64,000 nt of DNA, from NCBI GenBank assembly GCA_027858965.1, contig JAQIBS010000018.1, positions 18,550 through 82,549 on the forward strand, read 5' to 3'. Each line of letters opens with the position of its first letter. Position 1 is the stretch's first letter. This DNA is from Kiritimatiellia bacterium (GTDB lineage Bacteria; Verrucomicrobiota; Kiritimatiellia; RFP12; UBA1067). The notes beneath the pieces are model-generated. The model worked only from the letters and a program-made list of their open reading frames with translations, did not search any database and was not told where the DNA came from. Of the stretch, positions 1 to 32,369 are shown piece by piece. Position numbers and translations under genes: made by a program.

Positions 1-1250
1 CTAATGGGGGGCGTATAGGATTAAGCACCGGGAACCTCACACTGAATGGTCCTATTCGTCCACGTGAAGGCGTGACCCCAGCTCTGTTGGTATTTAATCC
101 TAGTAGCGGTACTATAACGATCAACAATACAGTTGATTCTGGTACGCGCAATACACTCTTTCACAGTGGAGGAACAGTTCTTCTTAACACTAACGGGCAT
201 AATTGGGGTGAGGCGCAGATTCAATACAGCAGCAAAGTGATGCTTGGCATTGATGATGCGATGGTTGTTTCCAAACGGGTGATCTTCGGCAATTCATCTG
301 GTGGCAATGGTACGATCAATATTAATGGTTTCAATCAGACCATTGGAGGGGTGTATATGTATGGGACAGCGGCATCCCTGCCGAACAACTTAATCAGGAA
401 TACAGATGCTACCAAGACCGGCACCTTTATAATAAAACATCTGACGGCTGTTGATCAGACCTTCAGTGGACGGATCATTGAAGCCGTTAATTTTGTCAAG
501 GATGGTGTTGCCGATTCTATTCTCACTTTGACTGGCACTAATACATTCACCGGTACTACCGAAGTGGATGGCGGCACGTTGATTCTGGGGAATGAGTGGG
601 CATTACAGAACAGCACCTTCAATGATACGACTTCCGAAGGTACACTGAGTTTCGGTAGCGGTTTTACAGAGTTTACCTTCGGTGGTCTGGCTGGTTCATC
701 TGATCTGGGATTAACCAATGCATCAGGTGTTGCCATTAATCTGATTGTCGGAAACAACAGCAGCGATACTATGTACAACGGTGTTCTCGCGGCTGGTGGC
801 AGCTTGACCAAGATCGGCACTGGCACACTGACATTGTCGGGTGAGAATACCTTCAGCGGCACAACAACAGTTACCAATGGCACTCTGGCTCTGGGTTGCG
901 ATAATGCATTGAGTGCTGGATCGCAGGTTGTTCTTAGTGGCGGTACGCTTGATGCGGGAGCTTTCGCGAACTCACTGGGTGTTCTCAGTGTGACAGGTGA
1001 TTCATCAATTGACCTGAGTGATGGTGCCGGCAGCCTTGCTTTTGCTGATAGCAGCAGTCAGACATGGAGCGGTGCTTTAAACATCGAGGGAAGCTGGCTG
1101 CCCTATACGTTGCGTGTCGGCACAAGTTCATCCGGTTTGACTAAGACACAGCTCAACAGCATTACGGTAGACAGTGAGAGTGTCTGGGTGCAGATTGATA
1201 ATGAGGGTTATCTCTGGAAAATGACCGGAACTCTCATTATCGTCAGGTAA
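1..1250 (+). CDS. 3'-portion of a large secreted surface protein with autotransporter-associated beta-strand (PATR-like) repeats. The reading frame is open back to base 3, so the gene starts upstream of the window. C-terminus is ...GTLIIVR.
   Basis: No stop between 3 and 72 in this frame. Repeated 'GTGTLTLSGENTFSGTTTVTNGTLALG'-type motifs. Ends with the heptapeptide shared by other proteins here. Confidence 0.6.
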   Translation, partial: NGGRIGLSTGNLTLNGPIRPREGVTPALLVFNPSSGTITINNTVDSGTRNTLFHSGGTVLLNTNGHNWGEAQIQYSSKVMLGIDDAMVVSKRVIFGNSSGGNGTININGFNQTIGGVYMYGTAASLPNNLIRNTDATKTGTFIIKHLTAVDQTFSGRIIEAVNFVKDGVADSILTLTGTNTFTGTTEVDGGTLILGNEWALQNSTFNDTTSEGTLSFGSGFTEFTFGGLAGSSDLGLTNASGVAINLIVGNNSSDTMYNGVLAAGGSLTKIGTGTLTLSGENTFSGTTTVTNGTLALGCDNALSAGSQVVLSGGTLDAGAFANSLGVLSVTGDSSIDLSDGAGSLAFADSSSQTWSGALNIEGSWLPYTLRVGTSSSGLTKTQLNSITVDSESVWVQIDNEGYLWKMTGTLIIVR

Positions 1251-1306
1251 AGTTTCACAGGCATCCCATCCGGATGCAGGAGTTCAGGTTTTCAGACAAT
1301 AGATTT

Positions 1307-4015
1307 TTAGTGGACCAGAATCAGGGTTCCGCCGATTATCTCCACGCGCACTTCGCCGGCGGCATTGTCATAAACGACGTGCCAGGGGGTAGTGTCGAAA
1401 TTTGTTGTGTCAAACTCACCTGTGAGAGTTCCCGGTGTGCAGGTTGCGATCACATAAGAGTTATCTGTTTTGAGCTCGGATAGATCCTGAATCTGAAGAG
1501 TTGAACCAGTCAGGTTGAGGGATCCCTGAACTTTGAGTAGATCGCATGTTCCGCTGACAGATGTGTCTGCCAATAAAGTTCCGGTCAGTGTTGTGGAGGT
1601 GGCGAGTGTCAGTGTGCCAATTACGGCGGTCTCTCCGGGCATGACCTTATTGCTGATAGCCAGAATCCCGTTAGTAACCACTCCATCTCCACTCAGTTCT
1701 GCCAGGGTTTGCGTGTTGCCACCCAGATCCAGCACACCATCTGATTTTACTGTGAATGCTGTATCCGTTGGTAGAGTGTCAACAAGGCCGCCGCCTGCCA
1801 GAGAGGTGACAAGCACCCGGTCGATCCATGTGGAGCGGTCAGTGCCTGTCATAACGCCCTCGAAGGTGAGTGTGTGCGAACCGGCGGATAGGTTGGCTAT
1901 TCCTGTATAGATGCTGCCTAAGACCTGGAACTCAGATGAGGCAAAGGTGAAGTTAGTGTTTCCGTCGATTAGGACATTAATAGCTGTGGCACCTGTGGTT
2001 GGTCGTTTGCCTGCCATGAAGGATATTACATACTCGCCATTCTCGGGCAGATTAAGGGTTGTGGTTGCTGTACCTAGCATAGTATTGGCTTGTATGAACG
2101 CAACATAAGATCCGTCTATTACGGCGTTGCTGCTCGCCCATGTGCTTCCGTGCTCAGCTATGCCACAAAAATAGAAATCCCAGAATGAATTTGCCGGGTT
2201 GCTGTCAAAGTATCCATAGGGTGGATGTTCAGTCAGAGGGTCATGCAGTTCAAAAGAGTTGTTGGTGACGACTATAGAGGCACTTAATTTTAATGTCCCT
2301 TCCTGAATCAGAGTATTACCTGAGTAGGTGTTAGTTCCGGTGAGTGTCAATATTCCATCGCCATCTTTTGTCAAGTTTCCAGCACCTGTAATGGAACCGA
2401 CGGTAAGAACTGTGCCAGGTCCATTGGCTGTATCAACTGTGATGGTTGCGTCCTGTTGTAATTCAATATTGTTGATTGTCTGCCAGGTTGTGTTTGTTAC
2501 ACCTCCGAAAGTCAACGACTCAGTTGCAGACGCACCGATAGTGTTGGCTTTGCTCATGATAAACTGTGATGCATCGTTAATATACGTAATATGTGTGTCT
2601 GCCGGAATAGATGGTCCTGATACTGACATTCCAGCAACGAGATCGGTTGTGCTACTACCACGTACGCATTTCGTGTATGTACTTTGACTGTCAACCGTGA
2701 AATCTCTGGTGACAGACGATGCAGTCGCAAGTCCTGTGACGGTGAAGTCACCTCCATTCAGAATGAGTTTGGAATTTCTGTTATAAAAATCGCTGACGAT
2801 ATTCTGTTCATTCCATTGAGAGGTCCGTTTATTAAAGTTAAGATTCAGAGTACCATCTGTAACTGTTGTCATACCGGAATAGGTTCCTCCCGAGAAGATC
2901 ATATTACCTGCTCCTTGTTTGGTCAGGCCTCCGGAGCCGCTCTTGTTAAACGACCCAATTGCTTCAATGTTTTTGTTGTTTGTATCGATAACTGCGCCGC
3001 CATCTTTCACAAAGTATGTGGTAACGTAGTTTTTTGTGGAATTTTCTGTGAGTAATGAATCGCTTTGAGCTTTCAGTAAACCACCGTTGTAATTGACGTT
3101 AAAAGCTCCTGAGCCTGTGGAGGTTGTGATGCGAGTGGTTGCAAGTGTTCCACTGTTGAGGTTGACTACGCCTGTATTGCCGTCCATATGTAAAATTCCA
3201 TTGGCTGTCAGGAGTCCTCCGTTTATATTAAGTGTTGCAGCGGAGTTCCAACCAAGTCTTATTTCACTTGTAGTTGTTACGACGGCTCCTGTGTTGACAT
3301 TAATCATGATATTCTGTTCACCTGAATGGCAGCCGATTCTTGCGGATGTTGTTAATTTGCCGTTGATGTTTAAGGTTACATCATCGCGCAGACGAACTCC
3401 GAAGGTGGCGTATATATTGATTGGAGGATATCCGGTTGTTGTAAATGATGCATTGGAGGGAATCGTGATCGTAGTTCCGGCAATGCCCCAATCGATGCCA
3501 TACCATGCTGTAGCAGAGTCCATGACATCAATCGAGTGAAAGGTGTTTGTTCCTGCAAATACGAATGAGCCGCCACCTGTGACATTAAGATCGCGCGTTG
3601 TATTGTTGCTGTTAATGAAATTAGTAACAGTTACATCGGAAGAGACCCACAGCAGCGGATTGATGATTCCGAAGTTGAGGGTGTTGCCATTGCCGTCGAG
3701 GGTGTAGCTGCCTGATCCCGGGGCATCGAACCTGAGATTGCCGACTGTAATATCGTCGCCAAGAGTGATTGTTCCTGCGGCATCTGATCCGACTCCGAAG
3801 ATGGTCTGGTCGGGCAGGGCGCTGTTGTTCCAGTTGGTGTTAACTTCCGTGCTGTGCCACCAGTTACTGTTGGATGTGTTCCAGGTGCCTGAACCGTCTT
3901 GAGCGTCGCTTGTGCTGATGTCAGCATCCCATGTGTTGGTGGTGGTCGCATAGACCATATTGAAAGAGACCCCGATACACATTGCTACGCATTCAATCAT
4001 CTTTTTACTCAACAT
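1307..4015 (-). CDS. Large secreted PATR-repeat surface protein (about 900 aa). Has an N-terminal signal peptide and a C-terminal beta-sandwich-like domain. C-terminus is ...GGTLILVH.
   Basis: The long minus ORF runs 1307..4099. The likely start is the internal Met (MLSKKMIECVAMCIGV...) at 4015, preceded by AAGGAG (revcomp of 'actcctt' at 4021-4027). Multiple 'G.GTLTLTGTNTYSGNT'-type repeats. Confidence 0.6.
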   Translation of the reverse strand: MLSKKMIECVAMCIGVSFNMVYATTTNTWDADISTSDAQDGSGTWNTSNSNWWHSTEVNTNWNNSALPDQTIFGVGSDAAGTITLGDDITVGNLRFDAPGSGSYTLDGNGNTLNFGIINPLLWVSSDVTVTNFINSNNTTRDLNVTGGGSFVFAGTNTFHSIDVMDSATAWYGIDWGIAGTTITIPSNASFTTTGYPPINIYATFGVRLRDDVTLNINGKLTTSARIGCHSGEQNIMINVNTGAVVTTTSEIRLGWNSAATLNINGGLLTANGILHMDGNTGVVNLNSGTLATTRITTSTGSGAFNVNYNGGLLKAQSDSLLTENSTKNYVTTYFVKDGGAVIDTNNKNIEAIGSFNKSGSGGLTKQGAGNMIFSGGTYSGMTTVTDGTLNLNFNKRTSQWNEQNIVSDFYNRNSKLILNGGDFTVTGLATASSVTRDFTVDSQSTYTKCVRGSSTTDLVAGMSVSGPSIPADTHITYINDASQFIMSKANTIGASATESLTFGGVTNTTWQTINNIELQQDATITVDTANGPGTVLTVGSITGAGNLTKDGDGILTLTGTNTYSGNTLIQEGTLKLSASIVVTNNSFELHDPLTEHPPYGYFDSNPANSFWDFYFCGIAEHGSTWASSNAVIDGSYVAFIQANTMLGTATTTLNLPENGEYVISFMAGKRPTTGATAINVLIDGNTNFTFASSEFQVLGSIYTGIANLSAGSHTLTFEGVMTGTDRSTWIDRVLVTSLAGGGLVDTLPTDTAFTVKSDGVLDLGGNTQTLAELSGDGVVTNGILAISNKVMPGETAVIGTLTLATSTTLTGTLLADTSVSGTCDLLKVQGSLNLTGSTLQIQDLSELKTDNSYVIATCTPGTLTGEFDTTNFDTTPWHVVYDNAAGEVRVEIIGGTLILVH

Positions 4016-4285: not shown

Positions 4286-4374
4286 TACCTTCAACGCATT
4301 TACCATTTGACACTTTTCCTGATGTATCGGATACTCTTGAGTATCTTTATTAGTTTAATAACTGGGGGATTAAA

Positions 4375-6776: not shown

Positions 6777-7244
6777 ATGAATAAAGGAAAGATCATTAAA
6801 GCACTGCGTGCAAAGCTGGAAGAGGAGCTGGTTCGTCTGCGGGATGCTAATAAACGGGCCTCTGCCGGCGCAACCGACAGCGAGGCGCGTGCGGAGACCA
6901 AGTGGGATACGTGCAGTCTGGAAGCCTCCTATCTGGCGCGAGGTCACGCACAGCAATTTTCTCAAATTTCCTCCGATGTTCAGTCGCTGCAAGTTGCTGT
7001 TCTGCCTGATTGCCGCAACCGACCGATAGAAATGGGAGCCCTGGCTGAGGTTGATATAGGTTTTGGACCAAAATTCTTTTTTTTGCTGCACTGCGGTGGA
7101 GGTATGAAATTATCGGTAGAGGGGGATGATGTGACGGTCATCACCCCGGAATCACCGATTGGTGCAGCGTTGATCGGTAAAAAGAGGGGTGATTCTTTTT
7201 CCTTTCGTGAGGGAGCGATAGGTAAAATTCTGAATGTAGAGTAA
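6777..7244 (+). CDS. GreA/GreB-family protein (Rnk-like). N-terminal coiled coil plus a GreA C-terminal FKBP-like domain.
   Basis: The C-terminal 'VITPESPIGAALIGKKRGDSFSF' resembles the GreA 'SPIARALIGK..GD' motif. Size is 155 aa. Confidence 0.55.
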   Translation: MNKGKIIKALRAKLEEELVRLRDANKRASAGATDSEARAETKWDTCSLEASYLARGHAQQFSQISSDVQSLQVAVLPDCRNRPIEMGALAEVDIGFGPKFFFLLHCGGGMKLSVEGDDVTVITPESPIGAALIGKKRGDSFSFREGAIGKILNVE

Positions 7245-7268
7245 ACCTTTTAATATAAGCTGATATCA

Positions 7269-9279: not shown

Positions 9280-9430
9280 CACATTCTGCGGAGGATCCTT
9301 AAAATAGAACCTGCCTATTTATCCTTATTTGACTTTCATTTGACTGTCGTCACTCTGTTTAGTATTCTTATACAAGCTGACCCTCAGCGGGAATGTCGGC
9401 GTCGCGACGATCGGACGCACCCCCCGACTG

Positions 9431-10851
9431 CAACTCGTTGGTGAAGGTGACGGCGAGCTGAGTGGAGTGATCAGCGCAGGCATGCTCATTGCTAAGAGCG
9501 GTAACGGAACCTGGGCACTTTCCGGCGCGAATACCTATGTCGGTGCTACCAGCGTGTCAGTCGGCACTTTGCTGATTAACGGTTCGACTACTTTCGAAAG
9601 TACGGTTGCCGTCGGGGCAGCGGGAACTCTCGGTGGTACAGGTACTGTTCACGGTGTTGTCAGCGTGACAGCCGATGGAACGCTTGCACCTGGAGCCGGT
9701 GGTGTCGGCACACTGACGCTGGATAACGGCAGTGCCACTAACCTGACTCTCAATGGCAACACAATTAAGTGTGATCTTTGATGAAACAGGTTCAGCTTCT
9801 CCTGATATCAATATTACCGAGGTGGTTGAACCTTTCTCAGTATTGGTTAACTCTGATACTAACAATTATACAATTGGCGGAGCGGCTATTGCCGGGTCAA
9901 CTGGTCTGACAAAATCCGGTGACAGTGTGTTGACCCTGACAGGTCATAATACGTATGGTGGCTTGACCACTGTTAATGCGGGCACACTGGCACTGACTGG
10001 CGGTTCGCTCAGCAACTCCAGTGTTAATGTTGCAGTGGGTGCGAGCTTTACGGAAGATTCGCGGATGGGGAAATACAATTCTTAACAGCACTGCCAGTAT
10101 CGGTACTTCCTCGATTCAGCGGGATGATAAAGGGACAACCCTGATCAACTCAACCAATAATGTCTGGGGCGGCAGCAATGTGCTGGAGGGAACCCTTAAA
10201 CTCGGTGCTGATAATGTTCTGCCTGTAACAACTACGCTGTTAATAGGTAAGACAGGAAACAAGGCGGATGCGGTATTTGATCTTAATGGTAAGAGTCAGA
10301 GAGTTGCCAGTATATCCGATATACACAACACATCAGTGGGTGGGGGAACTCAAAAAATTCTGAGTTCGACTCCTGCCACACTGATTGTCAGCAATGATAC
10401 AGCTATTACATTCGGTCTGACCGGAAGCTCCATTGAAGGTGAGGTGACCCTTGTTAAGATGGGAGCCGAATCCTTGACTCTGACCTCTACAAACGCGACT
10501 TCGGGCAGCTTTATTGTGAGCAATGGTACGCTGGTTGTCAGCGCGCTAGGCAGTTTTGGCGAGAATAGCACGAACGTTACCGTGGTGGCAGGCACTCTGA
10601 TACTGCAGAGTTCAGTTTCTGTCTCAGACAGCGCTACGCTTACGATTGCTGACGGTGGTGCTAAGGTTAGCTTGGCTGCCGGTGTGAACGAGATTGTTGA
10701 TTATCTGATACTGGGCGACACACCTAAAAGAGCCACCACCTACGGGGTAACCGGCAGTGGTGCTTCTGTGACAGATGATGCTCATTTTGACGGCAGTGGT
10801 ATTCTGACAGTTCTGCGTGATAAATCGGGGACTGTTATTGTTATCAGATAA
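9431..10851 (+). pseudogene. Promoterless, 5'-truncated copy of the downstream PATR gene (11104..14469). Carries frameshifts and two internal deletions. Retains the C-terminus ...GTVIVIR.
   Basis: Three consecutive ORF fragments in different frames (9467-9781, 9753-10085, 10021-10851) each align to successive segments of 11104..14469. DNA identity is about 78% at the 5' segment, rising to about 88% at the 3' end. Deletion junctions coincide with 'tcttt' microhomology. No signal peptide region. Confidence 0.7.
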
Positions 10852-11103: not shown

Positions 11104-14100
11104 ATGAAATTAAAGCATATGATAGTTGCGGTAATGTTGTTTGTAATGACACTTGTTGTTTGTGCGGATACATTCACATGGGATGGTGGCGGCAGTGATG
11201 ACAACTGGCTGACAAATGTCAACTGGGATCCGGATGGAATTCCTGACAATGATGGCAGTGCTGTTTTAAATTTTTCCGGTAATACACGTAACGGGCCGAT
11301 TAATGATTTTGCTGCGAATACCGCATTTGCTGGGATCAATTTGTTCAATGATGGTTCGGCTGGCAAGACAGCGGCCTTCACTCTTTCGGGGAACACTCTC
11401 ACTCTGGGAGGCAACATCTCAACAACGGGATCGTCCTCTACTATTGCTGATGAGATCAATTTGAATATGGTTCTAAGTACAAACCGTACGATTACCGCTA
11501 ACAGTTTGCATGACCTAACGGTCAACGGTATTATCAGTGAATCCGGTGGATCACAGGGATTGAAAAAAGAAGGCGGCGGGAAGTTGTTTCTTAAAGGAGT
11601 AAATACCTATTCAGGAAAAACTGAGATCAACAGCGGTACCACATATTTCTACTCGCTTAAGAATATCGGTGAGGGGGGCAGTGCGCTGGGGGCACCGACC
11701 ACGGTTGCCGACGGCACGATTGATTTAAAAGCCACACTTGAATACAAAGGTGGGGAATCTACCTCTGATCGGAGTATCAATCTGACAGGGGGGCATAGTT
11801 TGCGGAATAATGGCAGCGGTACGCTCACTTTTACGAAAGGGGTTACAGGTGTGAATCGAGGTTTTTCTGTTCGGGGTAGCAGAAATATTACAATTAACGG
11901 ACTCGTTGATCTAGGTAGTGGTGGTATTGGCCGTACAGATCCTGGTACGTTGACGCTGGCTTGTCCTACAAACTCGTTCTCCGGCAGTATCTCCATATCT
12001 GCTGGGACTATCAGTGTTGAAACTATCTCCGATAGCGGCGTGATTTCGGCTCTAGGACAGGGAACAAGTATTAATATGGGACAAAACGGCTGGAATACAA
12101 TCGGAAAACTTCTGTTCAACGGTACCGCTGGCGGTTCATGTAATCGTGCGATATCCGTTGAGGGAACGGAGGGAAGCATCACCTCTGGTGGCATCATCGA
12201 AAACTCCGTGGCCGGTAAAATGCTGACTTTAAGCGGAAATGTCGCTGTCAAAACATCCGGGCGTACGCCCCGTCTGCAGCTTATTGGTGACGGTGACGGT
12301 GAAATGAGTGGAGTGATCAGCGCGGGTATGCTCATTACTAAAAGTGGTGCCGGAACCTGGACGCTTTCTGGTGCGAATACCTATGTCGGCACTACCAGGG
12401 TATCAACCGGAACTTTGCTGATCAACGGTTCAACGGCTTCCGGCAGCGCAATCGTTGTTGATGCAGGGGGAACCCTTGGTGGTACTGGTACTGTGCATGG
12501 TGTTATCAATGCTGTGTCAGGTGGAACTCTCACACCTGGAGTCGACGGTATCGGTACGCTTACGCTCGATAATGGCAGCGCTGCTGACCTTACACTTAAC
12601 AGCAATACGATTGAGTGTGATCTTTCAAATGTTGTCGGATCTTCCGATTTGATCGCTATCTCTGGAACACTGGTTGTAAATGGAGCCAATACAATAGAGA
12701 TTGATTTTCCTGATGGGCCAGCGCCTTACGGCACTTATACAGTAATGACCTATGATGCGAAGAGCGGGTCAGGCACCTTGGCTGTCGACCAGACCTACGA
12801 CAATGTCCTGGTAACTGTCGGAGCTACAAATGTGACCTTAACGATTGTTGATACCAGCACAGTAACCTGGCAGGGCGATGGCATTGCCAATGCTTGGGAT
12901 AAGAGCACAGCCAACTGGTCATCGGGTACTTATGTTGATAATGACACTGTGCTCTTTGATGATACCGGTTCAGCTTCGCCCGATATCAATATTGCCGAGG
13001 TGGTTGAACCTTTCTCTGTATCAGTTGACTCAGATACAAACAATTACACAATCGGCGGTGCGGCTATTGCCGGTTCAGCAGGCCTGATAAAGTCCGGTGA
13101 TAGTGTGCTTACTCTGACCGGTCATAACACCTACGGTGGCCTGACCACTGTCAATGCCGGCACACTGGCCCTGAATGGAGGCTCGCTCAGCAATTCCAGT
13201 GTTAATGTTGCGCCCGGTGCAACCTTTACCGAAGATGCTGATGGTGTTATCGCCGGTGCCGGTATTGGCTTTACAGCCCGGGGTTCGTCAATACTGGCGG
13301 GGTCGAATACGTATGATGGTGTAACTACAGTGGGTGTCATTGGTACTCCAAACATCATTTTGACAGTTAGAAACAATCAGGCTTTAGGTTCCACCCTGAA
13401 TGGAGTGACCCTTTACGGAGGGGACAACTCTACGGAAAGTAGGGTTAGAATTGATGTTGACGGCGTTGTGATAAAGGATGAGACGCTGACTTTTGCAGGG
13501 TCCGGAAAACGTGCTGGACTGCAGTATTATCGTAATAGCGGTGCTGGTACCTGGGATGGCAATCTTGTTTTGGCCGGTGCCCTTTGTTATTTGAATTCTG
13601 AGTTTTATGGAGGCACTTTAGTTATTGGCGGCACGTCCGATGATACGATTACGGGCTCCGGTGGCAGTATTTCATTGCGGGGATCGGGAACCATTGTTCT
13701 TAACAGCACTATCAATATTGGAAGTGATGGCTTACAAAGAGATGACGCTGGCACATGTGTAATTAATTCCACCAGTAATACTCTAGGTTATCTCAATGTC
13801 TTGCAGGGAACATTCAAGCTTGGTGTTGAGAATGCTCTGCCCTCCACAACAAGACTGACTATCGGTAAATCCGGAAATATCGCGCATGGCAAGTTCGATC
13901 TCAACGGCAAGAGTCAGACAATTGGAAACCTGGCAGAGTTGCATAACACATCAGTAGGCGGGGGAACACAGAAGATTCTCAGTTCAACTCCGGCTACACT
14001 GATTGTCAGCAACACTACGGCGAATACATTCGGTCTGACAGGAAGCTCCATTGAAGGTGAGGTTACCCTCGTTAAGATGGGAACAGAATCCCTGACTTTG

Positions 14101-22940: not shown

Positions 22941-23003
22941 TAAATGCACATGATTTTATGTTTTAATAGGCAAAGGGGTATGCCGCAGCAATCAAGGGGG
23001 AGT

Positions 23004-25693: not shown

Positions 25694-26911
25694 TTAGGAC
25701 TTTACTCTGTAGGTTTTTCGGGCGTTACTCATTGTTTCATCAAAGGTTTTACGGACAAGTACGCTCAGGTGATTGCTGTTCGTAAATCCGCTGCGCTCGG
25801 CGATTTTCGCGAATGACAACTCTGTTTTAGTGACAAGATTGTAGATTGTTTTAGCTCTGACTCTGTGAATTTCTTTTACTGCAGATCTGCCAAGCTCCTG
25901 TGCAAAGCGTTTTTCCAGCCAGCGCTCTGATACCCCGACCTGTATAGCAACATCCGAGACTCGGATATTCAGTCCTGAGTTGATTCGTATGAATTCCAGA
26001 GCTTTGATGACAAGGCGGTCATTTACCTGTAATCGCTGTGAAGAGGCTCGGTGTATGATATTTTCCGGTTCATAGCGGACATGGGGTTCCTGCAGCTTTC
26101 CGCTATGCATTAGCTTATCAAGCATCTCTGCGGCCAAGTATCCGGCTTGCTCCATATTAACAGCAATGCTTGATAGCGGCGGCAGACTGGTTTCACAGAT
26201 AAGCACATCATTATTTACACCGAGTACCGCAATTTCATAAGGGACCGCTATATCAGCTGAAAGACATGCATTAAGCACCTGACGTCCACGAGAGTCGTTA
26301 GCCGCAAAAATCGCAATCGGTTTCGGAAGCTTCTTTAACCAGCAACACATCGCTCTTTTTTCTGATGACCAGTTTAAGATATCATCTATATCCGGCATTT
26401 CATAAACATCGCACGTAAAATTCCGCTCTGCCAGTTGTTTGATAAATGCCTGCTGACGCCAGCGTGACCAGTTGAACCCGTTCGGGTCGCCGACGTAACC
26501 GAAGTTTGTAAATCCCTGTGAGATCAGGTGGTTGACGGCCATAAGAGAAACAGCTTCTGAGTTACATTGAACACGCGGACATTTTGCCAGGGGGTGACTT
26601 TCGTCAAGATAACGGTTGAATGGATCAATCAGAATGGTGGGTAGTTTCGCCTGAATAATATCTTCAGCAGATTCAGAATTGGGAATGCGTGCAATAATGC
26701 CGTTACCTTTCCACTCTTTAATATCAGGCATGCGTTGGTCATTGGCTCCACCGGCAATCATATCCAGCGCCCATGGACCATAAACACGCACATATTCAAG
26801 AATGCCCCGCATCATCCCACGTGATATCCCGTGCGATGATTCCAGCAGAATAGCAACTTGCGGGATCTTTTTTCGCGTCTTTTTCTTTTTGACATTGTTT
26901 CTCTTTGCCAT
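25694..26911 (-). CDS. XylR-type transcriptional regulator: periplasmic-binding-protein-like sugar-sensor domain fused to a C-terminal AraC-family HTH.
   Basis: C-terminal 'ALEFIRINSGLNIRVSDVAIQVGVSERWLEKRF...FAKIAERSGFTNSNHLSVLVRKTF' is an AraC HTH. LacI/PBP-like N-terminal domain. Start taken at the internal Met MAKRNNVKKKK (26911). Confidence 0.65.
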   Translation of the reverse strand: MAKRNNVKKKKTRKKIPQVAILLESSHGISRGMMRGILEYVRVYGPWALDMIAGGANDQRMPDIKEWKGNGIIARIPNSESAEDIIQAKLPTILIDPFNRYLDESHPLAKCPRVQCNSEAVSLMAVNHLISQGFTNFGYVGDPNGFNWSRWRQQAFIKQLAERNFTCDVYEMPDIDDILNWSSEKRAMCCWLKKLPKPIAIFAANDSRGRQVLNACLSADIAVPYEIAVLGVNNDVLICETSLPPLSSIAVNMEQAGYLAAEMLDKLMHSGKLQEPHVRYEPENIIHRASSQRLQVNDRLVIKALEFIRINSGLNIRVSDVAIQVGVSERWLEKRFAQELGRSAVKEIHRVRAKTIYNLVTKTELSFAKIAERSGFTNSNHLSVLVRKTFDETMSNARKTYRVKS

Positions 26912-26928
26912 GTTGTTACTATAAAGCA

Positions 26929-26974
26929 TGTAGTTCGGAAAATCTAACATATAATTCGTAAAATAGAGAATGTG
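26929..26974. promoter_or_regulatory. Candidate operator: direct repeat TTCGGAAAAT-N11-TTCG(T/G)AAAAT. Same 46-bp element recurs at 29498-29543.
   Basis: 'tgtagttcggaaaatctaacatataattcgtaaaatagagaatgtg' versus 'tgtagttcggaaaatctaacatatagttcggaaaatagagaatgcg'. Confidence 0.5.
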
Positions 26975-27034
26975 AATTATTCGGTTATATGAAATGATTA
27001 AAAGGTTGAAGGTTGAAGGGGCATCGTTGAATTT

Positions 27035-27109
27035 GTTCGGTATCGCTATCGGTATCGGCATCGGTATCGAATTTAATTCGATGGTTGCTGTGTCCGATAG
27101 CGATACCGA
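27035..27109. promoter_or_regulatory. Perfect 17-bp inverted repeat (ttcggtatcgctatcgg ... ccgatagcgataccgaa) with internal cggtat hexamer repeats. It lies between the divergent regulator and the beta-helix gene.
   Basis: Seen directly in the sequence. The two arms are separated by 41 bp. Confidence 0.5.
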
Positions 27110-27168
27110 ATGTAATTAAGATCCATGTTATAGGGACAGATGCAATATTAGATAGGAATGAAATTGAT

Positions 27169-29289
27169 ATGAGAACATTGATGAGCATGGTATTTTCGTA
27201 TGTCTGTTTAGTGGCTGTAGTGGGCGCAAATACGACAGAACTATATGTGTCCCCAACCGGTTTAGACAATAATCCCGGATCGCGGGACAAGCCTTTTGCC
27301 ACATTATCAAGGGCGCGTGATGCTGTAAGGGCTATGAAGCGTGGCAAGGGGCTTCCGCAGGATGGCGTGACTGTATGGCTGCGTGGTGGCGAATATTTCT
27401 TCAGCGGACCGCTGGAACTGAACTCTGCTGATTCCGGTGAGCCGGATAAACCCGTGATATATTCTGCATACAAGGATGAAGTACCGGTTCTTTCGGGGGG
27501 CCGTTGTATCAAGGGTTTGCATCCGGTGGGTGGGGGAATATGGGAGGTCTCTGTTCCTGAGGCGAAAGGCGGCGCCTGGATTTTCCGTACTCTGTATGTT
27601 AATGGCAGTCGCTATACTCTGGCACGGTCACCAAATAATAGTTTTTATGAAATGGAGGGGGCTCTTCCCGATGAAAACTCTCCTAAGGATGGTGCGGAAG
27701 CAGGTAAATCAAAGTCAGGTTTTAAAGTTCTTCCCGCTGTGTTAGGGCAATGGCCTGATAACAGTGGAATCAATGTTAAGTTGTGGGGACGCTGGTGGAC
27801 ATCACTGTTGATGGTGCGTTCGGTTGATCCATCTGGCGGAGCTGTGAAACTTTGCGGGGCGGATAAACAATATCTGCCATATCGACATCGCAAGAAGACT
27901 CCGTTTATCATTGAAAACCATCCCGGAGCACTTGATGTCTCCGGTGAGTGGCAGCTGGATCGTAATACAGGTGTGTTGAAGATTATTCCGCGTGCGGGTG
28001 ATGATCTTAGCTCTATGGAAGTGATTGCACCTGTGGCGGAAAGGTTGCTGGTGTTGAAGGGGGATGCTGCGACAGGATCTTATGTGAATCACGTGGTTTT
28101 TCGAGGAATCAGCTTTCGCTATACAAACTGGACCCTGACCCCGGATTTTACAGGAATGCAGGCCGATGCGGATGTGAGTGCTGTAATTGAGTGTTATGGG
28201 AGTCGGAACTGTCTGTTTGAAGGGTGTGAAGTGAGCCAGACAGATACATCCGCAATCTGGCTGCGGCGTGGCACCCGTGAGTGTACGGTACGGCAATGTC
28301 ATTTTTATGATCTGGGCGCAGGCGGCGTGAAACTCGGTGAAACACAGGCATATGCGCAAAGTGATCCGCTCTGTACCGGTGGTAATACTGTTGAAAACTG
28401 CTATATACATAATGCGGGTCATGTGCATGGCTCCGGCGGTACCGGCATCTGGATTGGTGCAAGTTCTGATAATACCGTCACACATAATGAGATCTGTGAT
28501 CTTTGGTATACCGGTATAGCCGTGGGATGGAGATGGAGTGCGGATCTTAATGGTACGCGTAATAACCGTATAACATACAATTATATCCATCATATTATGC
28601 AGCGTCTCTCTGATGGAGGGGGAATTTATACTCTCGGTTTTCAACCTCAGACGGTATTGGCTAATAATATCATTCACGACAGCGGCCGGGATGGAGGTCC
28701 ATCGCATTGTCGAGGCATCTATATGGATGAAGGTTCTGTCGGATTTCTGGTTGAAAACAACCTTGTATATGATACGCAGGATGCTGCCCTGCGGATGCAG
28801 ATCGGGACGGGTTGCAACGTTTTCATCAATAATATCCTGGCATATGCCCGTGAATATGCGGTTGATATGGATGTAGCAAGAACTTGTGTTTTTATTAATA
28901 ACATTGTTTATCTGGATCAAGGTCGTCTGTTTAAATTTCAGAAGTGGCCGCATTACGAAAAATACATCTCAAAGAATCTCTATTGGCGGACTGATGGTCA
29001 GCCATTTACGGTCATGGGTCAGTCCTGGGATGAGTGGCGCAAGCAGACGCAGGCACCTATGTCCTATTTTAAAGGCCAGACCATGGATCAAGGCTCATTG
29101 GTAACTGATCCGCAGTTTGTTGATGCGGAAAAACGCGATTTTCGTTTGAAAGCCGGCTCGAAAGCATTTGCTATCGGGTTTAAGCCGCTGGATCTGGCTG
29201 CTCCTGGTTTGATTGGTGATGAAAATTGGACAGCTCTGCCTTCACGAGAGCGGACTTTAATTTCGTTCGAAGAGGGAGTAGCAAGGTAA
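27169..29289 (+). CDS. Secreted right-handed parallel beta-helix repeat protein (putative polysaccharide lyase/glycosidase).
   Basis: 'YVSPTGLDNNPGSRDKPFATLSRARDAV' N-terminus. Repeated 'NN.I.D....GI...' beta-helix rungs ('NCYIHNAGHVHGSGGTGIWIG', 'ENNLVYDT'). Confidence 0.55.
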   Translation: MRTLMSMVFSYVCLVAVVGANTTELYVSPTGLDNNPGSRDKPFATLSRARDAVRAMKRGKGLPQDGVTVWLRGGEYFFSGPLELNSADSGEPDKPVIYSAYKDEVPVLSGGRCIKGLHPVGGGIWEVSVPEAKGGAWIFRTLYVNGSRYTLARSPNNSFYEMEGALPDENSPKDGAEAGKSKSGFKVLPAVLGQWPDNSGINVKLWGRWWTSLLMVRSVDPSGGAVKLCGADKQYLPYRHRKKTPFIIENHPGALDVSGEWQLDRNTGVLKIIPRAGDDLSSMEVIAPVAERLLVLKGDAATGSYVNHVVFRGISFRYTNWTLTPDFTGMQADADVSAVIECYGSRNCLFEGCEVSQTDTSAIWLRRGTRECTVRQCHFYDLGAGGVKLGETQAYAQSDPLCTGGNTVENCYIHNAGHVHGSGGTGIWIGASSDNTVTHNEICDLWYTGIAVGWRWSADLNGTRNNRITYNYIHHIMQRLSDGGGIYTLGFQPQTVLANNIIHDSGRDGGPSHCRGIYMDEGSVGFLVENNLVYDTQDAALRMQIGTGCNVFINNILAYAREYAVDMDVARTCVFINNIVYLDQGRLFKFQKWPHYEKYISKNLYWRTDGQPFTVMGQSWDEWRKQTQAPMSYFKGQTMDQGSLVTDPQFVDAEKRDFRLKAGSKAFAIGFKPLDLAAPGLIGDENWTALPSRERTLISFEEGVAR

Positions 29290-29497
29290 GTCATGCCTTT
29301 GCAAACCGACGCAATTGACTAATGCGGGCTCTGCCCGCAACCCAATAAGAGAACTACGAAAGGCGCGAAAAACACGAAAATTGCTTTTGACGATAGGTCA
29401 TACGCAAAAAAAAGAATTCATTTTTTCGTGCTTTTCGTGTTTTTCGTAGTTAAAAAAACGTGCATAAATAACAAGAAGTTGATTTTATAGCAACTAA

Positions 29498-29543
29498 TGT
29501 AGTTCGGAAAATCTAACATATAGTTCGGAAAATAGAGAATGCG
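29498..29543. promoter_or_regulatory. Second copy of the TTCGGAAAAT direct-repeat element, about 75 bp upstream of gene 29618.
   Basis: See 26929-26974. Confidence 0.5.
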
Positions 29544-29617
29544 TCATTGGGTCTTTTCTGGGATAATAGAAACATATTCTAATTGTGTATTAGGAAAATA
29601 GAAAATGGAGCTATGTT

Positions 29618-30946
29618 ATGAAATTAAAAAACAAATTACTGGCTAATCTAGTGAAGGTCTCTTTCATTATGCTGGCTTTTGCAATGCAGGCAGCGCCTGT
29701 GCCTGTCACTGGCGTGTCAACCACACCTGGATTTGGCGGGGGTATCCCGCTCGGTAGCGGGCGGGTGTTGAATTATGTTGAGATTTCGAATGTTTGGTAC
29801 AATGTCAGAGGTGCCACATGTACTGAGTGTAATGCAGGATCAGCCGAAGGTGCGGTAAACGAAACTCAGCCAACCAGTCGTCTGGTTGCCCTGAGCGGGC
29901 TGAAAATTACGCAGTCTGTGCTCAATATCAAAAGCAGCGGCGCGAAGTTTGATCTGGGCATGACTGTTTCAAATAATACTACTCGGATTCTGTTCAGTGA
30001 AGTTGCGGCGAATACACAGTCAACAGGCGATTATATTACAATTTATCCGACCACTAACGGAGTTGTCGTCGGCTCCTGGAAGCTGGATATTGTGGCTGCA
30101 GATTATGCCGATACCGTTCTTGCATGGCAAGGTGTCACAGGCAGCTATCTATTCCGATCTTTTATAACATCATTCACTCTGAGTGATTTCTCGGGCGATA
30201 CAGGAACTCTGCTTTTCGATGGTTTTAAGATATCCGGTAATAATGATGTTGACCCCAACTTTGCCGCTATATTGCAAGAACCTGCGTCTGCTCCAATATC
30301 GAGTACGCCCATCCCGGCGACCGGAATTTTTTCGCCGGGCTTTGTTATTTCTCCTGAGACGAACCTTCAGACACTTGTTGGAATCGTCACCAGTAATGGA
30401 ACTTCCCGGCAGGTCAGCAGCCTTTCATGTGTAAGGGTGACAAACGGTGGTGCCTACCTGACTGATACTAATAATCCGCCTACAAAGCTTGAAGTTCTTT
30501 CAGAGTTGTCTTTCACAGAGGTCATTGCAAATGCATCCGGCATGGAATTTGAAATCGGGAGGACTGTTAATAGTGATGACGGAGTTCGTTTTTTTCTGAG
30601 TGAGTGTGATGTCAGGGACTCTGGGACAGATGATGTTGTTATTGTTTATCCGCTTTATGAGGGAGAGAGAATTGATAATTGGTGCCTCGAGTTCCAGTCA
30701 TCGGATTATGGTGAACCGACTCCGGATTGGAGTGCACAGCTGTTGGGAGGGGGCCATGAGCCGACCTTCTATGGTTCGCTGACAAGCTTTGCTCTGAGTG
30801 ATTTCACAAATGGACCACCCATTGCTCTGACTGGTGTCAACGGTTTTGAGGTCAAATGTCCCACTATCGACAATCTGACAGCCGATATCAGCGTTTTCGG
30901 CATGTATGAGATGCCACCTGAGGGCACGATTATTTTGGTACAATAA
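29618..30946 (+). CDS. Secreted hypothetical protein, paralog A of a tandem pair. Two internally repeated domains of about 200 aa. C-terminus is ...GTIILVQ.
   Basis: Signal peptide 'MLAFAMQAAPVPV'. 'CTECN'. Internal repeat pattern '...FDLG.TV.N...R.LFSE...GD.I.IYP...G..VG.W.LDI.A.DY...TSF.LSDF...'. GGAG RBS. Confidence 0.5.
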   Translation: MKLKNKLLANLVKVSFIMLAFAMQAAPVPVTGVSTTPGFGGGIPLGSGRVLNYVEISNVWYNVRGATCTECNAGSAEGAVNETQPTSRLVALSGLKITQSVLNIKSSGAKFDLGMTVSNNTTRILFSEVAANTQSTGDYITIYPTTNGVVVGSWKLDIVAADYADTVLAWQGVTGSYLFRSFITSFTLSDFSGDTGTLLFDGFKISGNNDVDPNFAAILQEPASAPISSTPIPATGIFSPGFVISPETNLQTLVGIVTSNGTSRQVSSLSCVRVTNGGAYLTDTNNPPTKLEVLSELSFTEVIANASGMEFEIGRTVNSDDGVRFFLSECDVRDSGTDDVVIVYPLYEGERIDNWCLEFQSSDYGEPTPDWSAQLLGGGHEPTFYGSLTSFALSDFTNGPPIALTGVNGFEVKCPTIDNLTADISVFGMYEMPPEGTIILVQ

Positions 30947-30963
30947 TTAAAATCAATCTACAT

Positions 30964-31034
30964 CCACGGTGTAACGGCGGATATACTGTATGGTTCGGTA
31001 TGTTCGCCGCTATGCGGCGGATGTATAAATAATC
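30964..31034. promoter_or_regulatory. Upstream element 'ccacggtgtaacggcggatatac...gtatgttcgccgc'. A related element sits at 14649-14704 upstream of the fucosidase gene.
   Basis: Sequence comparison. 14649-14704 forms a 16-bp inverted repeat caccgtgtaacgccgg / ccgccgttacacggtg. Confidence 0.4.
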
Positions 31035-31067
31035 ATGCTATGGATAAGTCCTGTCAAAGGAGAAATT

Positions 31068-32369
31068 ATGAAAATTAAATCCAGAAATATTATGATGGCA
31101 TCTTTTGCCATGATGGCATTTGCAATACAAGCGGCACCTATACCGGTCGATGCAATCTACTGTGATCCTGGTTTTGTGACTGGAGTTGCAGCCACAAATC
31201 GACAGAACCTCGTATATATTGCGGTTAGCAATGATGGGTATCAGGTGACAGGTGCCGTTTGTACTGAATGTACCTCTACCCGACGTGGAGGAACAACAAA
31301 CGACCTTCCTGCTTCTTCTTCTGCTGCTTTGAGCGGAGTTATATTAACTCATGTGGTTATCGATAGTTCCAACGGGGCCAAGTTCGATCTGGGTGTGACC
31401 ATTACAAATGATAATACGGGAATCGTTCTTGGTGAGATTGGCGCTTCTAATCAGACATCCGGAGACCCGATCAATGTCTACCCTCTGATAAATGGGATTC
31501 GTGTAGGAAACTGGGTGCGCCGGATCACAGCGGTAGATTACGGAATGTTTAATGCTAAGCCTTTCAGGGTGGATCGAAGTGATGGTATTCTGAATCAGAC
31601 ATTAATACCATTTTTGACTACCTTCCGACACAGTGATTTCACTAATGATACCGGTGCTCTATCATTCGATGGCATAGAAATCAATGATACCAGCAATTAT
31701 GATCCGAATATTGTCGCTGTATTTGGGGAAGCCTTAACACTCGTGACCAACAAACTGCCTGTAACCGCAATGACATTCTCTCCTGGATTTGATGAAAATC
31801 CGGAGCTGGATGGTCAGGTTCTGAAATCTATTACTACTGATGAGGGTACTTTTAGTAATATTGAGGGGTTGAGATGTGTAAGCGCCGGTGGTTCAAAATT
31901 CGGAGCTGTAAATGAAGGTGTGCCGGACCATGCCACCAATGCACTCAGTGAACTCCGATTCACCCAGGGCTCTGCCAATGTAGGCACTGCCGATTGGATT
32001 CTTGATGCGGTAGTTAATGGATCCGATTCTAATCTTCGCTTCTTTTTTGGAGAGATATCTGTATATACTTCCGTAAATCCGGATTCTGTTACAATAACTC
32101 CTTTTGTTGATGGGGTGCTTTTCAGCGATAAAACGCTTGTCATTGAATCGGGCGATTATGGAACTCCCAGCCCTGTTTGGGATAACACATACGTTAGTTT
32201 GTTTGTGGGCACTATGGTCTCATTTTCTCTTAATGATTTCCTTGACGGTGTGTTTGATGAGCCGCTTACCAACGTTACCGGTTTCCGGGTATATAGTTCA
32301 ACTGCTGATCCAAATATCTTCGGGACATATAAAATACCGTTTCCAGGAACAATCATAGTTGTTTATTAA
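31068..32369 (+). CDS. Secreted hypothetical protein, paralog B of the tandem pair. C-terminus is ...GTIIVVY.
   Basis: Start at ATG 31068 after AAGGAG. Signal peptide 'MMAFAIQAAPIPV'. 'CTECT'. Same two-domain architecture as 29618..30946. Confidence 0.5.
   Translation: MKIKSRNIMMASFAMMAFAIQAAPIPVDAIYCDPGFVTGVAATNRQNLVYIAVSNDGYQVTGAVCTECTSTRRGGTTNDLPASSSAALSGVILTHVVIDSSNGAKFDLGVTITNDNTGIVLGEIGASNQTSGDPINVYPLINGIRVGNWVRRITAVDYGMFNAKPFRVDRSDGILNQTLIPFLTTFRHSDFTNDTGALSFDGIEINDTSNYDPNIVAVFGEALTLVTNKLPVTAMTFSPGFDENPELDGQVLKSITTDEGTFSNIEGLRCVSAGGSKFGAVNEGVPDHATNALSELRFTQGSANVGTADWILDAVVNGSDSNLRFFFGEISVYTSVNPDSVTITPFVDGVLFSDKTLVIESGDYGTPSPVWDNTYVSLFVGTMVSFSLNDFLDGVFDEPLTNVTGFRVYSSTADPNIFGTYKIPFPGTIIVVY

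What the first reader, a model, noticed from the sequence alone, without database searches (positions are those of the whole stretch)
1..32369. Conserved C-terminal heptapeptide G-T-x-I-x-V-[RHQY]-stop on six secreted proteins: candidate undescribed sorting signal
Six secreted proteins end with the same heptapeptide immediately before the stop codon. (1) The partial PATR protein at 1..1250 ends ...GTLIIVR. (2) The convergent PATR protein 1307..4015 ends ...GGTLILVH. (3) The silent copy at 9431..10851 ends ...GTVIVIR. (4) The PATR protein 11104..14469 ends ...GTMILVR. (5, 6) The non-PATR paralogs 29618..30946 and 31068..32369 end ...GTIILVQ and ...GTIIVVY. Each is preceded by a loosely conserved beta-strand-like segment of about 20 residues (e.g. 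'GSGILTVLRD.SGT'). None of the glycoside hydrolases or housekeeping proteins in the window carries the motif. It is not PEP-CTERM (no PEP, TM helix or Arg tail), not LPXTG, and far shorter than a T9SS CTD. A short C-terminal strand shared by unrelated passenger architectures suggests a dedicated recognition tag. It could serve outer-membrane insertion, cell-surface retention or secretion, in the manner of a beta-strand complementation signal.
Basis: partly seen in the sequence, partly recalled or inferred. Interest (0 to 1): 0.7.

Follow-up and report, generated by a model that had tools for sequence, protein, structure and literature searches.

The report
Seven-residue C-terminal tag replacing PEP-CTERM
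Secreted sugar-binding and adhesin-like proteins of this Kiritimatiellae bacterium and its relatives all end in the same free seven-residue tail (Gly-Thr-hydrophobic-Ile-x-hydrophobic-x), which sits exactly where related proteins carry the known PEP-CTERM surface-sorting signal, so it is probably an undescribed surface-sorting or anchoring tag.

Summary
Six ORFs in the window end in G-T-h-I-h-V-x-stop, and none of the other 684 six-frame ORFs does. One of the six is a frameshifted pseudogene and two pairs are paralogs, so there are about four independent lineages. The source is a Kiritimatiellae MAG.

Homologs extend the motif to G-T-[VLMI]-I-x-[VFIL]-x-COOH, always exactly seven residues. In the p5 family G, T and I are invariant at 38-67% identity. 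The motif is enriched several-hundred- to over-1000-fold at the extreme C-terminus compared with internal positions.

It occurs on at least seven architectures:
- PATR beta-helices
- tandem CBM32-like beta-sandwiches
- LamG
- GDPD+LamG
- ~1380-aa proteins with no Pfam match
- larger proteins with a p5-like C-terminal domain
- a 2300-aa PATR giant, which carries only a looser variant (GTLMTLL)

Every carrier with an intact N-terminus has a signal peptide.

In two unrelated passenger families, homologs end either in a PEP-CTERM or, at the same junction, in this tail. Eight sampled PEP-CTERM ends were confirmed by HMM. AlphaFold2 leaves the tail as low-confidence coil in both folds. Pfam, NCBIfam and the literature hold nothing on it.

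Best reading: a non-tripartite C-terminal sorting or anchoring tag read as a free beta-strand. The receptor is unknown and the mechanism is inferred.

The parts
1..1250 (+). p1: 3' part of a large PATR beta-helix protein (at least 1207 aa in the sister contig L028). The heptapeptide GTLIIVR is encoded at 1227-1247 and the stop codon is at 1248-1250.
   Evidence: In the AF2 model the last strand is residues 403-406 of the 415-aa fragment and the final 9 residues are coil with pLDDT ~59.
1307..4015 (-). p2: 902-aa PATR protein with a signal peptide. The tail GTLILVH is encoded at 1310-1330 and the stop codon is at 1307-1309.
   Evidence: NCBI record MDA3923355.1.
9376..10851 (+). p3: pseudogene remnant of a p4 paralog, made of three segments in three reading frames with no N-terminus. 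It still ends in GTVIVIR (10828-10848).
   Evidence: blastn 76-84% identity to three separate parts of p4..
11104..14469 (+). p4: 1121-aa PATR protein with a signal peptide. The tail GTMILVR is encoded at 14446-14466.
   Evidence: NCBI record MDA3923363.1. Its ortholog in L006 ends GTVILVR.
29618..30946 (+). p5: 442-aa secreted protein made of tandem CBM32-like beta-sandwiches. The tail GTIILVQ (30923-30943) follows a Pro-containing linker (MPPE).
31068..32369 (+). p6: 433-aa paralog of p5. The tail GTIIVVY is encoded at 32346-32366.
   Evidence: The p5/p6 pair is conserved in L005 and L022.
25694..36122 (.). Conserved polysaccharide-utilisation context of p5/p6: AraC/XylR-type regulator (25694-27061, -), beta-helix protein (27085-29289), p5, p6, GH16 (32466-33338) and a LamG+GH protein (33438-36122). 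None of the enzymes carries the tail.
   Evidence: for Pfam assignments. for synteny in L003, L005, L013, L017 and L022.

Best explanation
The heptapeptide G-T-[VLMI]-I-x-[VFIL]-x-COOH is a modular C-terminal sorting or anchoring tag for Sec-exported, mostly non-catalytic surface proteins of Kiritimatiellae-type PVC bacteria. These are PATR adhesin-like beta-helices and CBM32-like or LamG glycan binders encoded in polysaccharide-utilisation loci. The tag does the job that PEP-CTERM does in homologous proteins of other lineages.

Shown:
- The tag is conserved at protein level.
- It lies at a fixed distance of seven residues from the carboxyl end.
- It is detached from the fold, often by a poly-Pro linker.
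- It is restricted to signal-peptide proteins.
- It is shared by at least seven architectures (one carries only a looser variant).
- It is positionally interchangeable with PEP-CTERM.

Inferred:
- The tag has no membrane-spanning helix and no basic cluster, so it cannot be held in the inner membrane for an exosortase-type intramembrane enzyme.
- After export, the free C-terminal strand is instead read in the periplasm or at the outer membrane by beta-strand addition. The conserved face is T(-6), I(-4) and h(-2), plus h(-5). The partner would dock the protein or pass it to the cell surface.
- The core G-x-x-h-x-h fits the core of the Omp85/BAM beta-signal, and its seven residues match the span that BamA's lateral gate engages. 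An Omp85-family or other outer-membrane barrel is therefore the most likely receptor.
- The Pro-rich spacer suggests that the tail stays attached as the anchor, and is more than a transient export signal.
For: - Motif and statistics.
- p5 family: 27 homologs at 38-67% identity. All but two defective copies end ...FG[MT]YE-h-P(2-6)-x-GT-h-I-x-h-x. G, T and I are invariant while the linker length varies.
- The tail is kept from 46% to 66% GC.
- PATR homologs of p1 share one C-terminal module, LRFGT..LT..QL..nGYL. They then end in PEP-CTERM (28 of 120) or in the tail (13 of 120).
- Profile search of the p5 domain against 1.84 billion representatives gave 82 hits. 51 end in PEP-CTERM 2-5 residues after the last strand '..DPxxVG'. 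11 end in the tail 3-9 residues after the same strand.
- 8 of 8 sampled PEP-type ends pass TIGR02595 above its cut-off. Tail-type P0165 and P0166 do not.
- AF2 leaves the tail as coil in both p5 and p1, with pLDDT about 56-68 and about 59.
- Further architectures carry it: ~1380-aa no-Pfam proteins, 2xLamG, GDPD+LamG and 500-900-aa proteins; a 2300-aa PATR giant carries a looser variant.
- 37 of 42 full-length carriers have a signal peptide by heuristic.
- Secreted glycoside hydrolases and putative lipoproteins of the same loci lack the tail.
- About 280 kb of loci from tail-bearing lineages hold 22 distinct tail ORFs and no genuine PEP-CTERM.
- The beta-signal consensus zeta-x-G-x-x-[aromatic/hydrophobic]-x-[aromatic/hydrophobic] and the seven-residue BamA contact are stated in PMC10945584.
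Against: - No receptor, processing enzyme or localisation data exist, so the function is inferred purely from comparative anatomy.
- The beta-signal resemblance is loose. Bacterial beta-signals end on an aromatic residue, whereas here one variable residue always follows the last hydrophobic. The invariant Thr has no counterpart, and there is no barrel.
- No whole-genome census could be run, so restriction to secreted proteins rests on about 0.4 Mb of loci, most of them chosen through tail-bearing genes.
- The 43-tail consensus was partly ascertained with a regex that fixes G and T. Only the p5-family alignment shows their invariance independently.
- Low pLDDT does not prove the tail is free in vivo.
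- Most homologs come from metagenomes without taxonomy.
Confidence: 0.55

Rival explanations
1. Self-assembly strand rather than sorting tag. The free C-terminal strand of one subunit inserts into an open beta-sheet edge of another tail-bearing protein or of a PATR beta-helix. This would be donor-strand exchange, as in chaperone-usher or Bacteroidia type V pili, and would build surface fibres or hetero-oligomers such as p5-p6.
For: - The one-face hydrophobic pattern T-I-h is typical of donor strands.
- p5 and p6 occur as conserved adjacent pairs.
- G-T-L-x-L resembles the core strand of the PATR repeat itself, for example the internal GGTLILG in p1.
- The tail is free in both AF2 models.
Against: - The same tail sits on at least seven unrelated folds, which would all need a compatible acceptor groove.
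- Some loci have a single p5-type gene (L003, L013, L014).
- The exact exchangeability with PEP-CTERM, a sorting signal, argues for sorting.
- The AF2 models show no obvious open groove, but this was not analysed in detail.
Confidence: 0.15
2. Truncated derivative of PEP-CTERM. Either it is a decaying relic without function, or it is a minimal substrate still handled by an exosortase.
For: - It occupies the PEP-CTERM position.
- Common PEP-CTERM variants read PEP-G-T-L-A-L..., which compares with PPxG-T-L-I-L-V-x-stop.
- PEP-CTERM PATR proteins exist in the same order, Kiritimatiellales (P0059, P0087, L021).
Against: - A relic would not keep G, T and I invariant, with an exact length of seven residues, across 38-67% identity and 46-66% GC. 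Nor would it recur on at least seven architectures.
- Most PATR-type tails have no Pro or Glu upstream.
- The tails lack the PEP motif, the transmembrane helix and the Arg cluster, and score nothing against TIGR02595 or PF07589.
- No PEP-CTERM protein was found in 280 kb of tail-lineage loci.
Confidence: 0.1
3. Integral last beta-strand or cap of each protein's own C-terminal domain, with no signalling role.
For: - The sequence is beta-strand-like.
- In PATR proteins it resembles the repeat's own GTLxL strand.
Against: - AF2 ends both folds before the tail.
- Pro-rich linkers of 2-6 prolines and variable length separate the tail from the p5 domain.
- The same domain is complete without the tail in 51 PEP-CTERM homologs.
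- The carrier folds are unrelated.
Confidence: 0.05
4. C-terminal recognition motif for a periplasmic tail-specific or PDZ protease (Prc/Ctp/DegP-type), acting as a turnover or quality-control tag.
For: - Short non-polar C-termini are what such PDZ domains read (established knowledge, not tested here).
- The fixed distance to the carboxylate fits.
Against: - The final residue is variable and mostly polar or basic (Q, R, H, Y, W, N, K). PDZ ligands need a hydrophobic last residue.
- A degron conserved on abundant surface-type proteins, and exchangeable with PEP-CTERM, is hard to rationalise.
Confidence: 0.05

Closest known systems
PEP-CTERM / exosortase sorting signal (TIGR02595, PF07589)
   Same: Both lie at the extreme C-terminus of Sec-exported surface-type proteins. 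Both sit at the identical junction after the same passenger domains, in PATR proteins and in the p5-type domain. Both have a small residue plus Ser/Thr followed by hydrophobics just after the junction (PEP-[SAG]-[ST]-h-h versus x-G-T-h-I). Both are many-to-one, with many cargo families carrying one motif.
   Different: The tail has no PEP, no ~20-residue transmembrane helix and no Arg/Lys cluster. It is 7 residues long, against about 24-30. It gives no HMM hit. It therefore cannot be retained in the inner membrane for an intramembrane exosortase. No cognate enzyme is known.
Omp85/BAM beta-signal of outer-membrane beta-barrel proteins (zeta-x-G-x-x-[aromatic/hydrophobic]-x-[aromatic/hydrophobic]; PMC10945584)
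   Same: Both are C-terminal and beta-strand-like. The core G-x-x-h-x-h matches G(-7), I(-4) and h(-2). The seven-residue length equals the span bound at BamA's lateral gate.
   Different: The cargo is a soluble beta-helix or beta-sandwich, not a barrel. One extra variable residue always follows the last hydrophobic, instead of a terminal Phe, Tyr or Trp. The invariant Thr and the hydrophobic at -5 are not part of the beta-signal. The resemblance is a lead and has not been tested.
Other tripartite CTERM tags (GlyGly-CTERM/rhombosortase, MYXO-CTERM/myxosortase, PGF-CTERM/archaeosortase, LPXTG/sortase)
   Same: All are short signature motifs at the C-terminus of many unrelated secreted proteins within one lineage.
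   Different: All of those have a signature motif, a transmembrane helix and a basic tail, and are processed by a membrane enzyme. The heptapeptide has only a signature-sized element. None of these models hits it.
T9SS C-terminal domain (Por_Secre_tail) and donor strands of chaperone-usher or type V pili
   Same: The T9SS CTD is a C-terminal element that directs outer-membrane passage and surface attachment of PUL-type proteins. Pilus donor strands are free terminal strands read by beta-strand addition.
   Different: The T9SS CTD is a folded beta-sandwich of about 80 residues, found in Bacteroidota. Pilus donor strands complement a groove in the same protein family. Here the carriers are heterogeneous and no acceptor is known.

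Membership tests
PEP-CTERM (TIGR02595 / PF07589) | Pro-Glu-Pro signature motif | tested here: not met
   None of the 43 unique tails contains PEP at the junction. PATR-type tails have no Pro or Glu upstream.
PEP-CTERM (TIGR02595 / PF07589) | A hydrophobic transmembrane helix of about 20 residues, followed by an Arg/Lys cluster | tested here: not met
   Only 5 residues follow G-T, and the protein ends there.
PEP-CTERM (TIGR02595 / PF07589) | Match to the family HMM above its cut-off | tested here: not met
   There is no hit for the six window proteins or for isolated tails at E<=10. There is none for P0165 or P0166. In the same call, 8 of 8 PEP-type homologs score 18.6-25.8 bits against a cut-off of 16.
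PEP-CTERM (TIGR02595 / PF07589) | A cognate exosortase (EpsH family) in the same genome | not testable with these tools
   Only the 64-kb window and loci of 21 kb or less were available. No exosortase-like gene lies in them, but whole genomes could not be read.
Classical autotransporter (type Va) | C-terminal 12-strand beta-barrel translocator (PF03797) | tested here: not met
   p1-p4 have PATR repeats only and no barrel domain. The AF2 model of p1 is a beta-helix that ends in a free tail.
T9SS C-terminal domain (TIGR04183 Por_Secre_tail) | A folded CTD of about 70-100 residues that matches the HMM | tested here: not met
   No HMM hit. The shared element is 7 residues long.
LPXTG / GlyGly-CTERM / MYXO-CTERM type signals | Signature motif plus transmembrane helix plus basic tail, matching the HMM | tested here: not met
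   The only hit is a sub-threshold internal Gram_pos_anchor match in p4 (E 0.17), which is not at the C-terminus. No NCBIfam hits.
Omp85/BAM beta-signal | Consensus zeta-x-G-x-x-[aromatic/hydrophobic]-x-[aromatic/hydrophobic] as the last strand of a beta-barrel, usually with a terminal aromatic residue | tested here: inconclusive
   The core G-x-x-h-x-h is met in all tails (consensus). However, an extra terminal residue is always present, the polar residue is off by one position, and the cargo is not a barrel.
Omp85/BAM beta-signal | Binding to BamA, BamD or another Omp85 protein | not testable with these tools
   This needs peptide-binding or cross-linking assays, or complex prediction. Only single-chain prediction of window or database proteins was allowed.

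The most novel reading that the evidence does not exclude
The heptapeptide marks a previously unrecognised protein-sorting system of Kiritimatiellia-type PVC bacteria. It would be the first 'CTERM' signal in diderm bacteria that is not tripartite. A dedicated, still unidentified periplasmic or outer-membrane receptor or transpeptidase would read it as a free C-terminal strand. In these lineages it has replaced PEP-CTERM/exosortase for displaying the glycan-binding and adhesin proteins of polysaccharide-utilisation loci.
Probability: 0.35. Interest if true: 0.85.

Novelty: new variant of a known kind. Interest (0 to 1): 0.66.

Why it matters
Kiritimatiellia are major degraders of sulfated and other recalcitrant marine polysaccharides. 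How they place binding proteins and adhesins on their surface is unknown. They lack the SusC/D lipoprotein logic and the T9SS of Bacteroidota.

A seven-residue tag would give three things:
- a simple sequence rule for predicting the surface proteome of these bacteria from genomes;
- a handle (peptide bait, phylogenetic profiling) for finding the missing sorting or anchoring machinery;
- a natural experiment in which one sorting signal, PEP-CTERM, was replaced by a far shorter one on the same cargo.

The tag is too short for profile HMMs, which explains why curated libraries miss it. It also suggests that similar mini-tags may be overlooked elsewhere.

Tried and rejected
1. Known-domain explanation. 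Pfam and NCBIfam scans of the six proteins and of isolated tails at E<=10 gave nothing at the C-termini.

2. Candidate partner operon. A GreA-like / YdjM-DUF4184 / periplasmic PIG-L block (window 6777-9151) lies between tail-bearing PATR genes here and in L006 and L028. I searched PIG-L homologs and read five neighbourhoods.
- L023 (43% identity) has two tail genes within 10 kb.
- L026/L027 (60% identity) and L024/L025 (40% identity) have none.
- Tail genes occur about once per 8-10 kb in these PUL regions, so proximity is uninformative. The lead is not supported, though it is not excluded.

3. Database-wide, family-independent survey with a 9-column tail profile.

4. Genome and metagenome scans with the p5 alignment returned only 2 and 8 loci. 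That is too few for a census or for phylogenetic profiling.

6. DNA-repeat artefact. Rejected, because codons and downstream sequences differ.

7. TonB-box resemblance (D/E-T-h-h-V-T-A). I considered this from memory only. No test was possible and there was no supporting context, so it is not pursued.

8. Literature. Eight full-text searches were run. The seven aimed at the tag or its biology (Kiritimatiell*/sorting signal, PEP-CTERM, exosortase, autotransporter-associated repeat, secretion and PULs, truncated PEP-CTERM, signal peptide/surface) found no description of it. The eighth only retrieved the beta-signal paper.
Full report
**Observation.**
- p1 ...KMTGTLIIVR
- p2 ...IIGGTLILVH
- p3 ...KSGTVIVIR
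- p4 ...TSGTMILVR
- p5 ...PPEGTIILVQ
- p6 ...PFPGTIIVVY

Among all 690 stop-to-stop ORFs of at least 40 aa in the six frames of the window, only these six end in G-[TS] followed by four hydrophobic residues and one more residue. The six tails use different codons and are followed by unrelated DNA, so this is protein-level conservation and not a repeated DNA element.

Two qualifications apply.
- p3 is a pseudogene. It consists of three pieces of a p4 paralog (76-84% nucleotide identity) lying in three different frames, with no N-terminus.
- p3/p4 and p5/p6 are paralog pairs. The window therefore offers about four independent lineages.

The '~20-residue conserved segment' is shared only by p3 and p4. 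Upstream of the heptapeptide the families share nothing.

**Source and context.** The proteins are exact matches to a Kiritimatiellae MAG (locus tag PF904_01575; MDA3923355.1 and MDA3923363.1; contig of 87.6 kb).

The left half of the window is a polysaccharide-utilisation region. It holds GH31, a GH29 fucosidase, AXE1, a BNR sialidase-like protein, a CBM4_9 protein, GH42-like proteins, an AraC/XylR-type regulator, a beta-helix protein, GH16, a LamG+GH protein, an SDR, an MFS transporter and an MR/MLE enzyme. The right half is housekeeping: S1 proteins, TyrRS, hexokinase and others.

Several of the glycoside hydrolases have signal peptides or lipoprotein-like signals but no tail. The tail therefore marks a subset of exported proteins and is not a feature of export as such.

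**The motif in homologs.** Twenty-seven homologs of p5 (38-67% identity) end almost without exception in ...FG[MT]YE-h-P(2-6)-x-G-T-h-I-x-h-x. The two exceptions are truncated or frameshifted copies.
- In the 24-sequence alignment G436, T437 and I439 are invariant, while the Pro linker varies in length.
- The motif persists from 46% GC (this window) to 63-66% GC relatives.

Forty-three unique tails give the following consensus:
- G(-7)
- T(-6)
- [V/L/M/I](-5)
- I(-4) in 36 of 43
- a variable residue at -3
- [V/F/I/L](-2)
- a variable residue at -1, mostly polar, basic or aromatic (Q, R, H, Y, W...)

G and T were partly fixed by the regex used to collect the tails. Their invariance is shown independently only by the p5 alignment.

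The motif is concentrated at the extreme C-terminus.
- PATR set: internal rate 2.6e-4 per position, 0.03 C-terminal matches expected, 11 observed.
- p5 set: internal rate 1.8e-4 per position, 0.02 expected, 33 observed.

**Carriers.** The tail occurs on these architectures:
- PATR beta-helix proteins of several subfamilies
- the p5/p6 family
- ~1370-1390-aa proteins with no Pfam match (L006, L023)
- a 2xLamG protein (L013)
- a GDPD+LamG protein (L023)
- a 2300-aa PATR giant with a looser tail, GTLMTLL (L017)
- 500-900-aa proteins with a p5-like C-terminal domain (P0165, P0166, P0176, P0227)

Thirty-seven of 42 full-length carriers pass a simple signal-peptide heuristic. The five failures have truncated or miscalled starts.

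**The key result: the tail is exchangeable with PEP-CTERM.**

1. Homologs of p1 share the C-terminal module LRFGT..S.LT..QL..I..nGYL. Of the best 120, 28 then end in [VI]PEP-transmembrane helix-RRR and 13 end in the heptapeptide. Several of the PEP-type ends carry precomputed PF07589.

2. A profile of the p5 family searched against 1.84 billion representatives finds only 82 proteins.
- 51 are mostly ~250-aa single-domain proteins in which the last strand '...DPxxVG' is followed after 2-5 residues by PEP-CTERM.
- In 11 the same strand is followed after 3-9 residues, often prolines, by the heptapeptide.
- Eight of eight sampled PEP-type ends pass TIGR02595 above its cut-off. The tail-type P0165 and P0166 do not.

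Two unrelated passenger families thus show the same substitution at the same junction.

In about 280 kb of loci from tail-bearing lineages there are 22 distinct tail ORFs and no genuine PEP-CTERM. A Kiritimatiellales genome (GCA_037141075.1) does encode a PEP-CTERM PATR protein.

**Is the tail part of the fold?** AlphaFold2 says no in both families.
- p5 (mean pLDDT 85.9): the last strand is at residues 427-431, and residues 432-442 are coil with block pLDDT 68 falling to 56.
- p1 fragment (mean pLDDT 92.9): the last strand is at 403-406, and the last 9 residues are coil at about 59.

The variable poly-Pro spacer points the same way.

**Mechanism (inferred).** The tail has neither a membrane-spanning helix nor a basic cluster. 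The route used by PEP-CTERM, GlyGly-CTERM and MYXO-CTERM signals, namely inner-membrane retention followed by cleavage by an intramembrane enzyme, is therefore not available.

The constant seven-residue distance to the carboxyl end implies that the free terminus is part of what is recognised. The conserved T-I-h face, plus the hydrophobic at -5, is what a strand added to the edge of a partner sheet would present.

The core G-x-x-h-x-h matches the core of the Omp85/BAM beta-signal. Seven residues is also the span that BamA's lateral gate contacts (PMC10945584). An outer-membrane barrel is therefore my preferred receptor. This is a resemblance and has not been tested. It differs in three ways: an extra terminal residue, an invariant Thr, and a cargo that is not a barrel.

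The Pro-rich spacer is typical of stalks that precede anchors, so I favour retention at the surface over a transient export signal.

**Rivals.**
- A donor strand for self-assembly. This is plausible, but it needs acceptor grooves on many unrelated folds.
- A truncated PEP-CTERM relic or minimal exosortase substrate. The sequence similarity PEP-G-T-L-A-L versus PPxG-T-L-I-L hints at such an origin. A relic, however, would not keep the length and three residues invariant across families.
- An integral last strand. This is contradicted by AF2, by the linkers and by the PEP-type homologs.
- A PDZ or tail-specific protease tag. The last residue is wrong for that.

**Known or new?** Neither Pfam nor NCBIfam (June 2026) has a model on the tail. 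Seven full-text searches aimed at the tag found no description of it; an eighth search only retrieved the beta-signal paper. A seven-residue motif is below what profile HMMs can capture, which may explain why it has been missed.

I class it as a new variant of a known kind. It is a C-terminal sorting tag without the tripartite architecture.

**Limits.**
- There was no whole-genome census, no partner, no localisation data, and mostly unclassified metagenomic homologs.
- The only candidate partner found by synteny, a YdjM/DUF4184 plus periplasmic PIG-L operon, did not hold up. Tail genes are too dense in these regions for proximity to mean anything.

Noticed in passing
window 9376-10851: p3 is a mosaic pseudogene. 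Three non-contiguous pieces of a p4 paralog (76-84% nucleotide identity) lie in three different reading frames directly upstream of the intact p4. Only the last 276 codons stay open, and they still end in the tail.
   Followed up: yes
window 25694-41500; L005, L022, L003, L013, L017: A conserved utilisation locus recurs from 46% to 66% GC relatives: AraC/XylR-type regulator, one or two CBM32-like tail proteins, GH16, LamG+GH39/42-like, SDR, MFS, MR/MLE dehydratase-like, and a beta-helix protein. It is probably a dedicated beta-glycan or algal-glycan PUL without SusC/D.
   Followed up: partly
window 6777-9151; L006 14989-17453; L023 10001-12100; L028 335-2709: A small conserved operon holds a GreA-like 155-aa protein, a YdjM/DUF4184 membrane hydrolase (weak Zn-phospholipase-C similarity) and a PIG-L/LmbE-family deacetylase. 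The deacetylase has an N-terminal signal or anchor and a C-terminal transmembrane helix, so it is probably periplasm-facing, which is unusual for this family. The YdjM-PIG-L adjacency is kept at 43% identity. Function unknown.
   Followed up: partly
window 16900-18828: A 642-aa eukaryotic-type Ser/Thr protein kinase (Pkinase E 9e-46) is embedded among the glycoside hydrolase genes.
   Followed up: no
L004 ~1700-2100 (MAG labelled uncultured Lentisphaeraceae): The p5-type gene carries an internal deletion or frameshift. The tail-coding end (…SSPDGTVILFY*) is still present in another frame. This is either a pseudogene or an assembly error.
   Followed up: partly
window 53265-53335, 63628-63716, 58818-58870, 11016-11045, 22911-22941: Short perfect or near-perfect tandem repeats lie in intergenic regions: 18 bp x3.9, 31 bp x2.9, 18 bp x2.9, GTTGCA x5 just upstream of p4, and an 8-bp unit x3.9. 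Their significance is unknown.
   Followed up: no
L021 1-3391 (Kiritimatiellales GCA_037141075.1): A PEP-CTERM PATR protein lies next to ExbD-TonB-ExbB, a TPR protein and a GT4 glycosyltransferase. The arrangement is reminiscent of exopolysaccharide/PEP-CTERM system loci. It shows that both kinds of C-terminal signal exist within the order.
   Followed up: no
window 47975-49693 (- strand): The GFO_IDH_MocA N-terminal domain (49136-49693) and the GH109 C-terminal domain (47975-48454) lie in separate ORFs about 700 bp apart. This may be a disrupted GH109-like gene.
   Followed up: no
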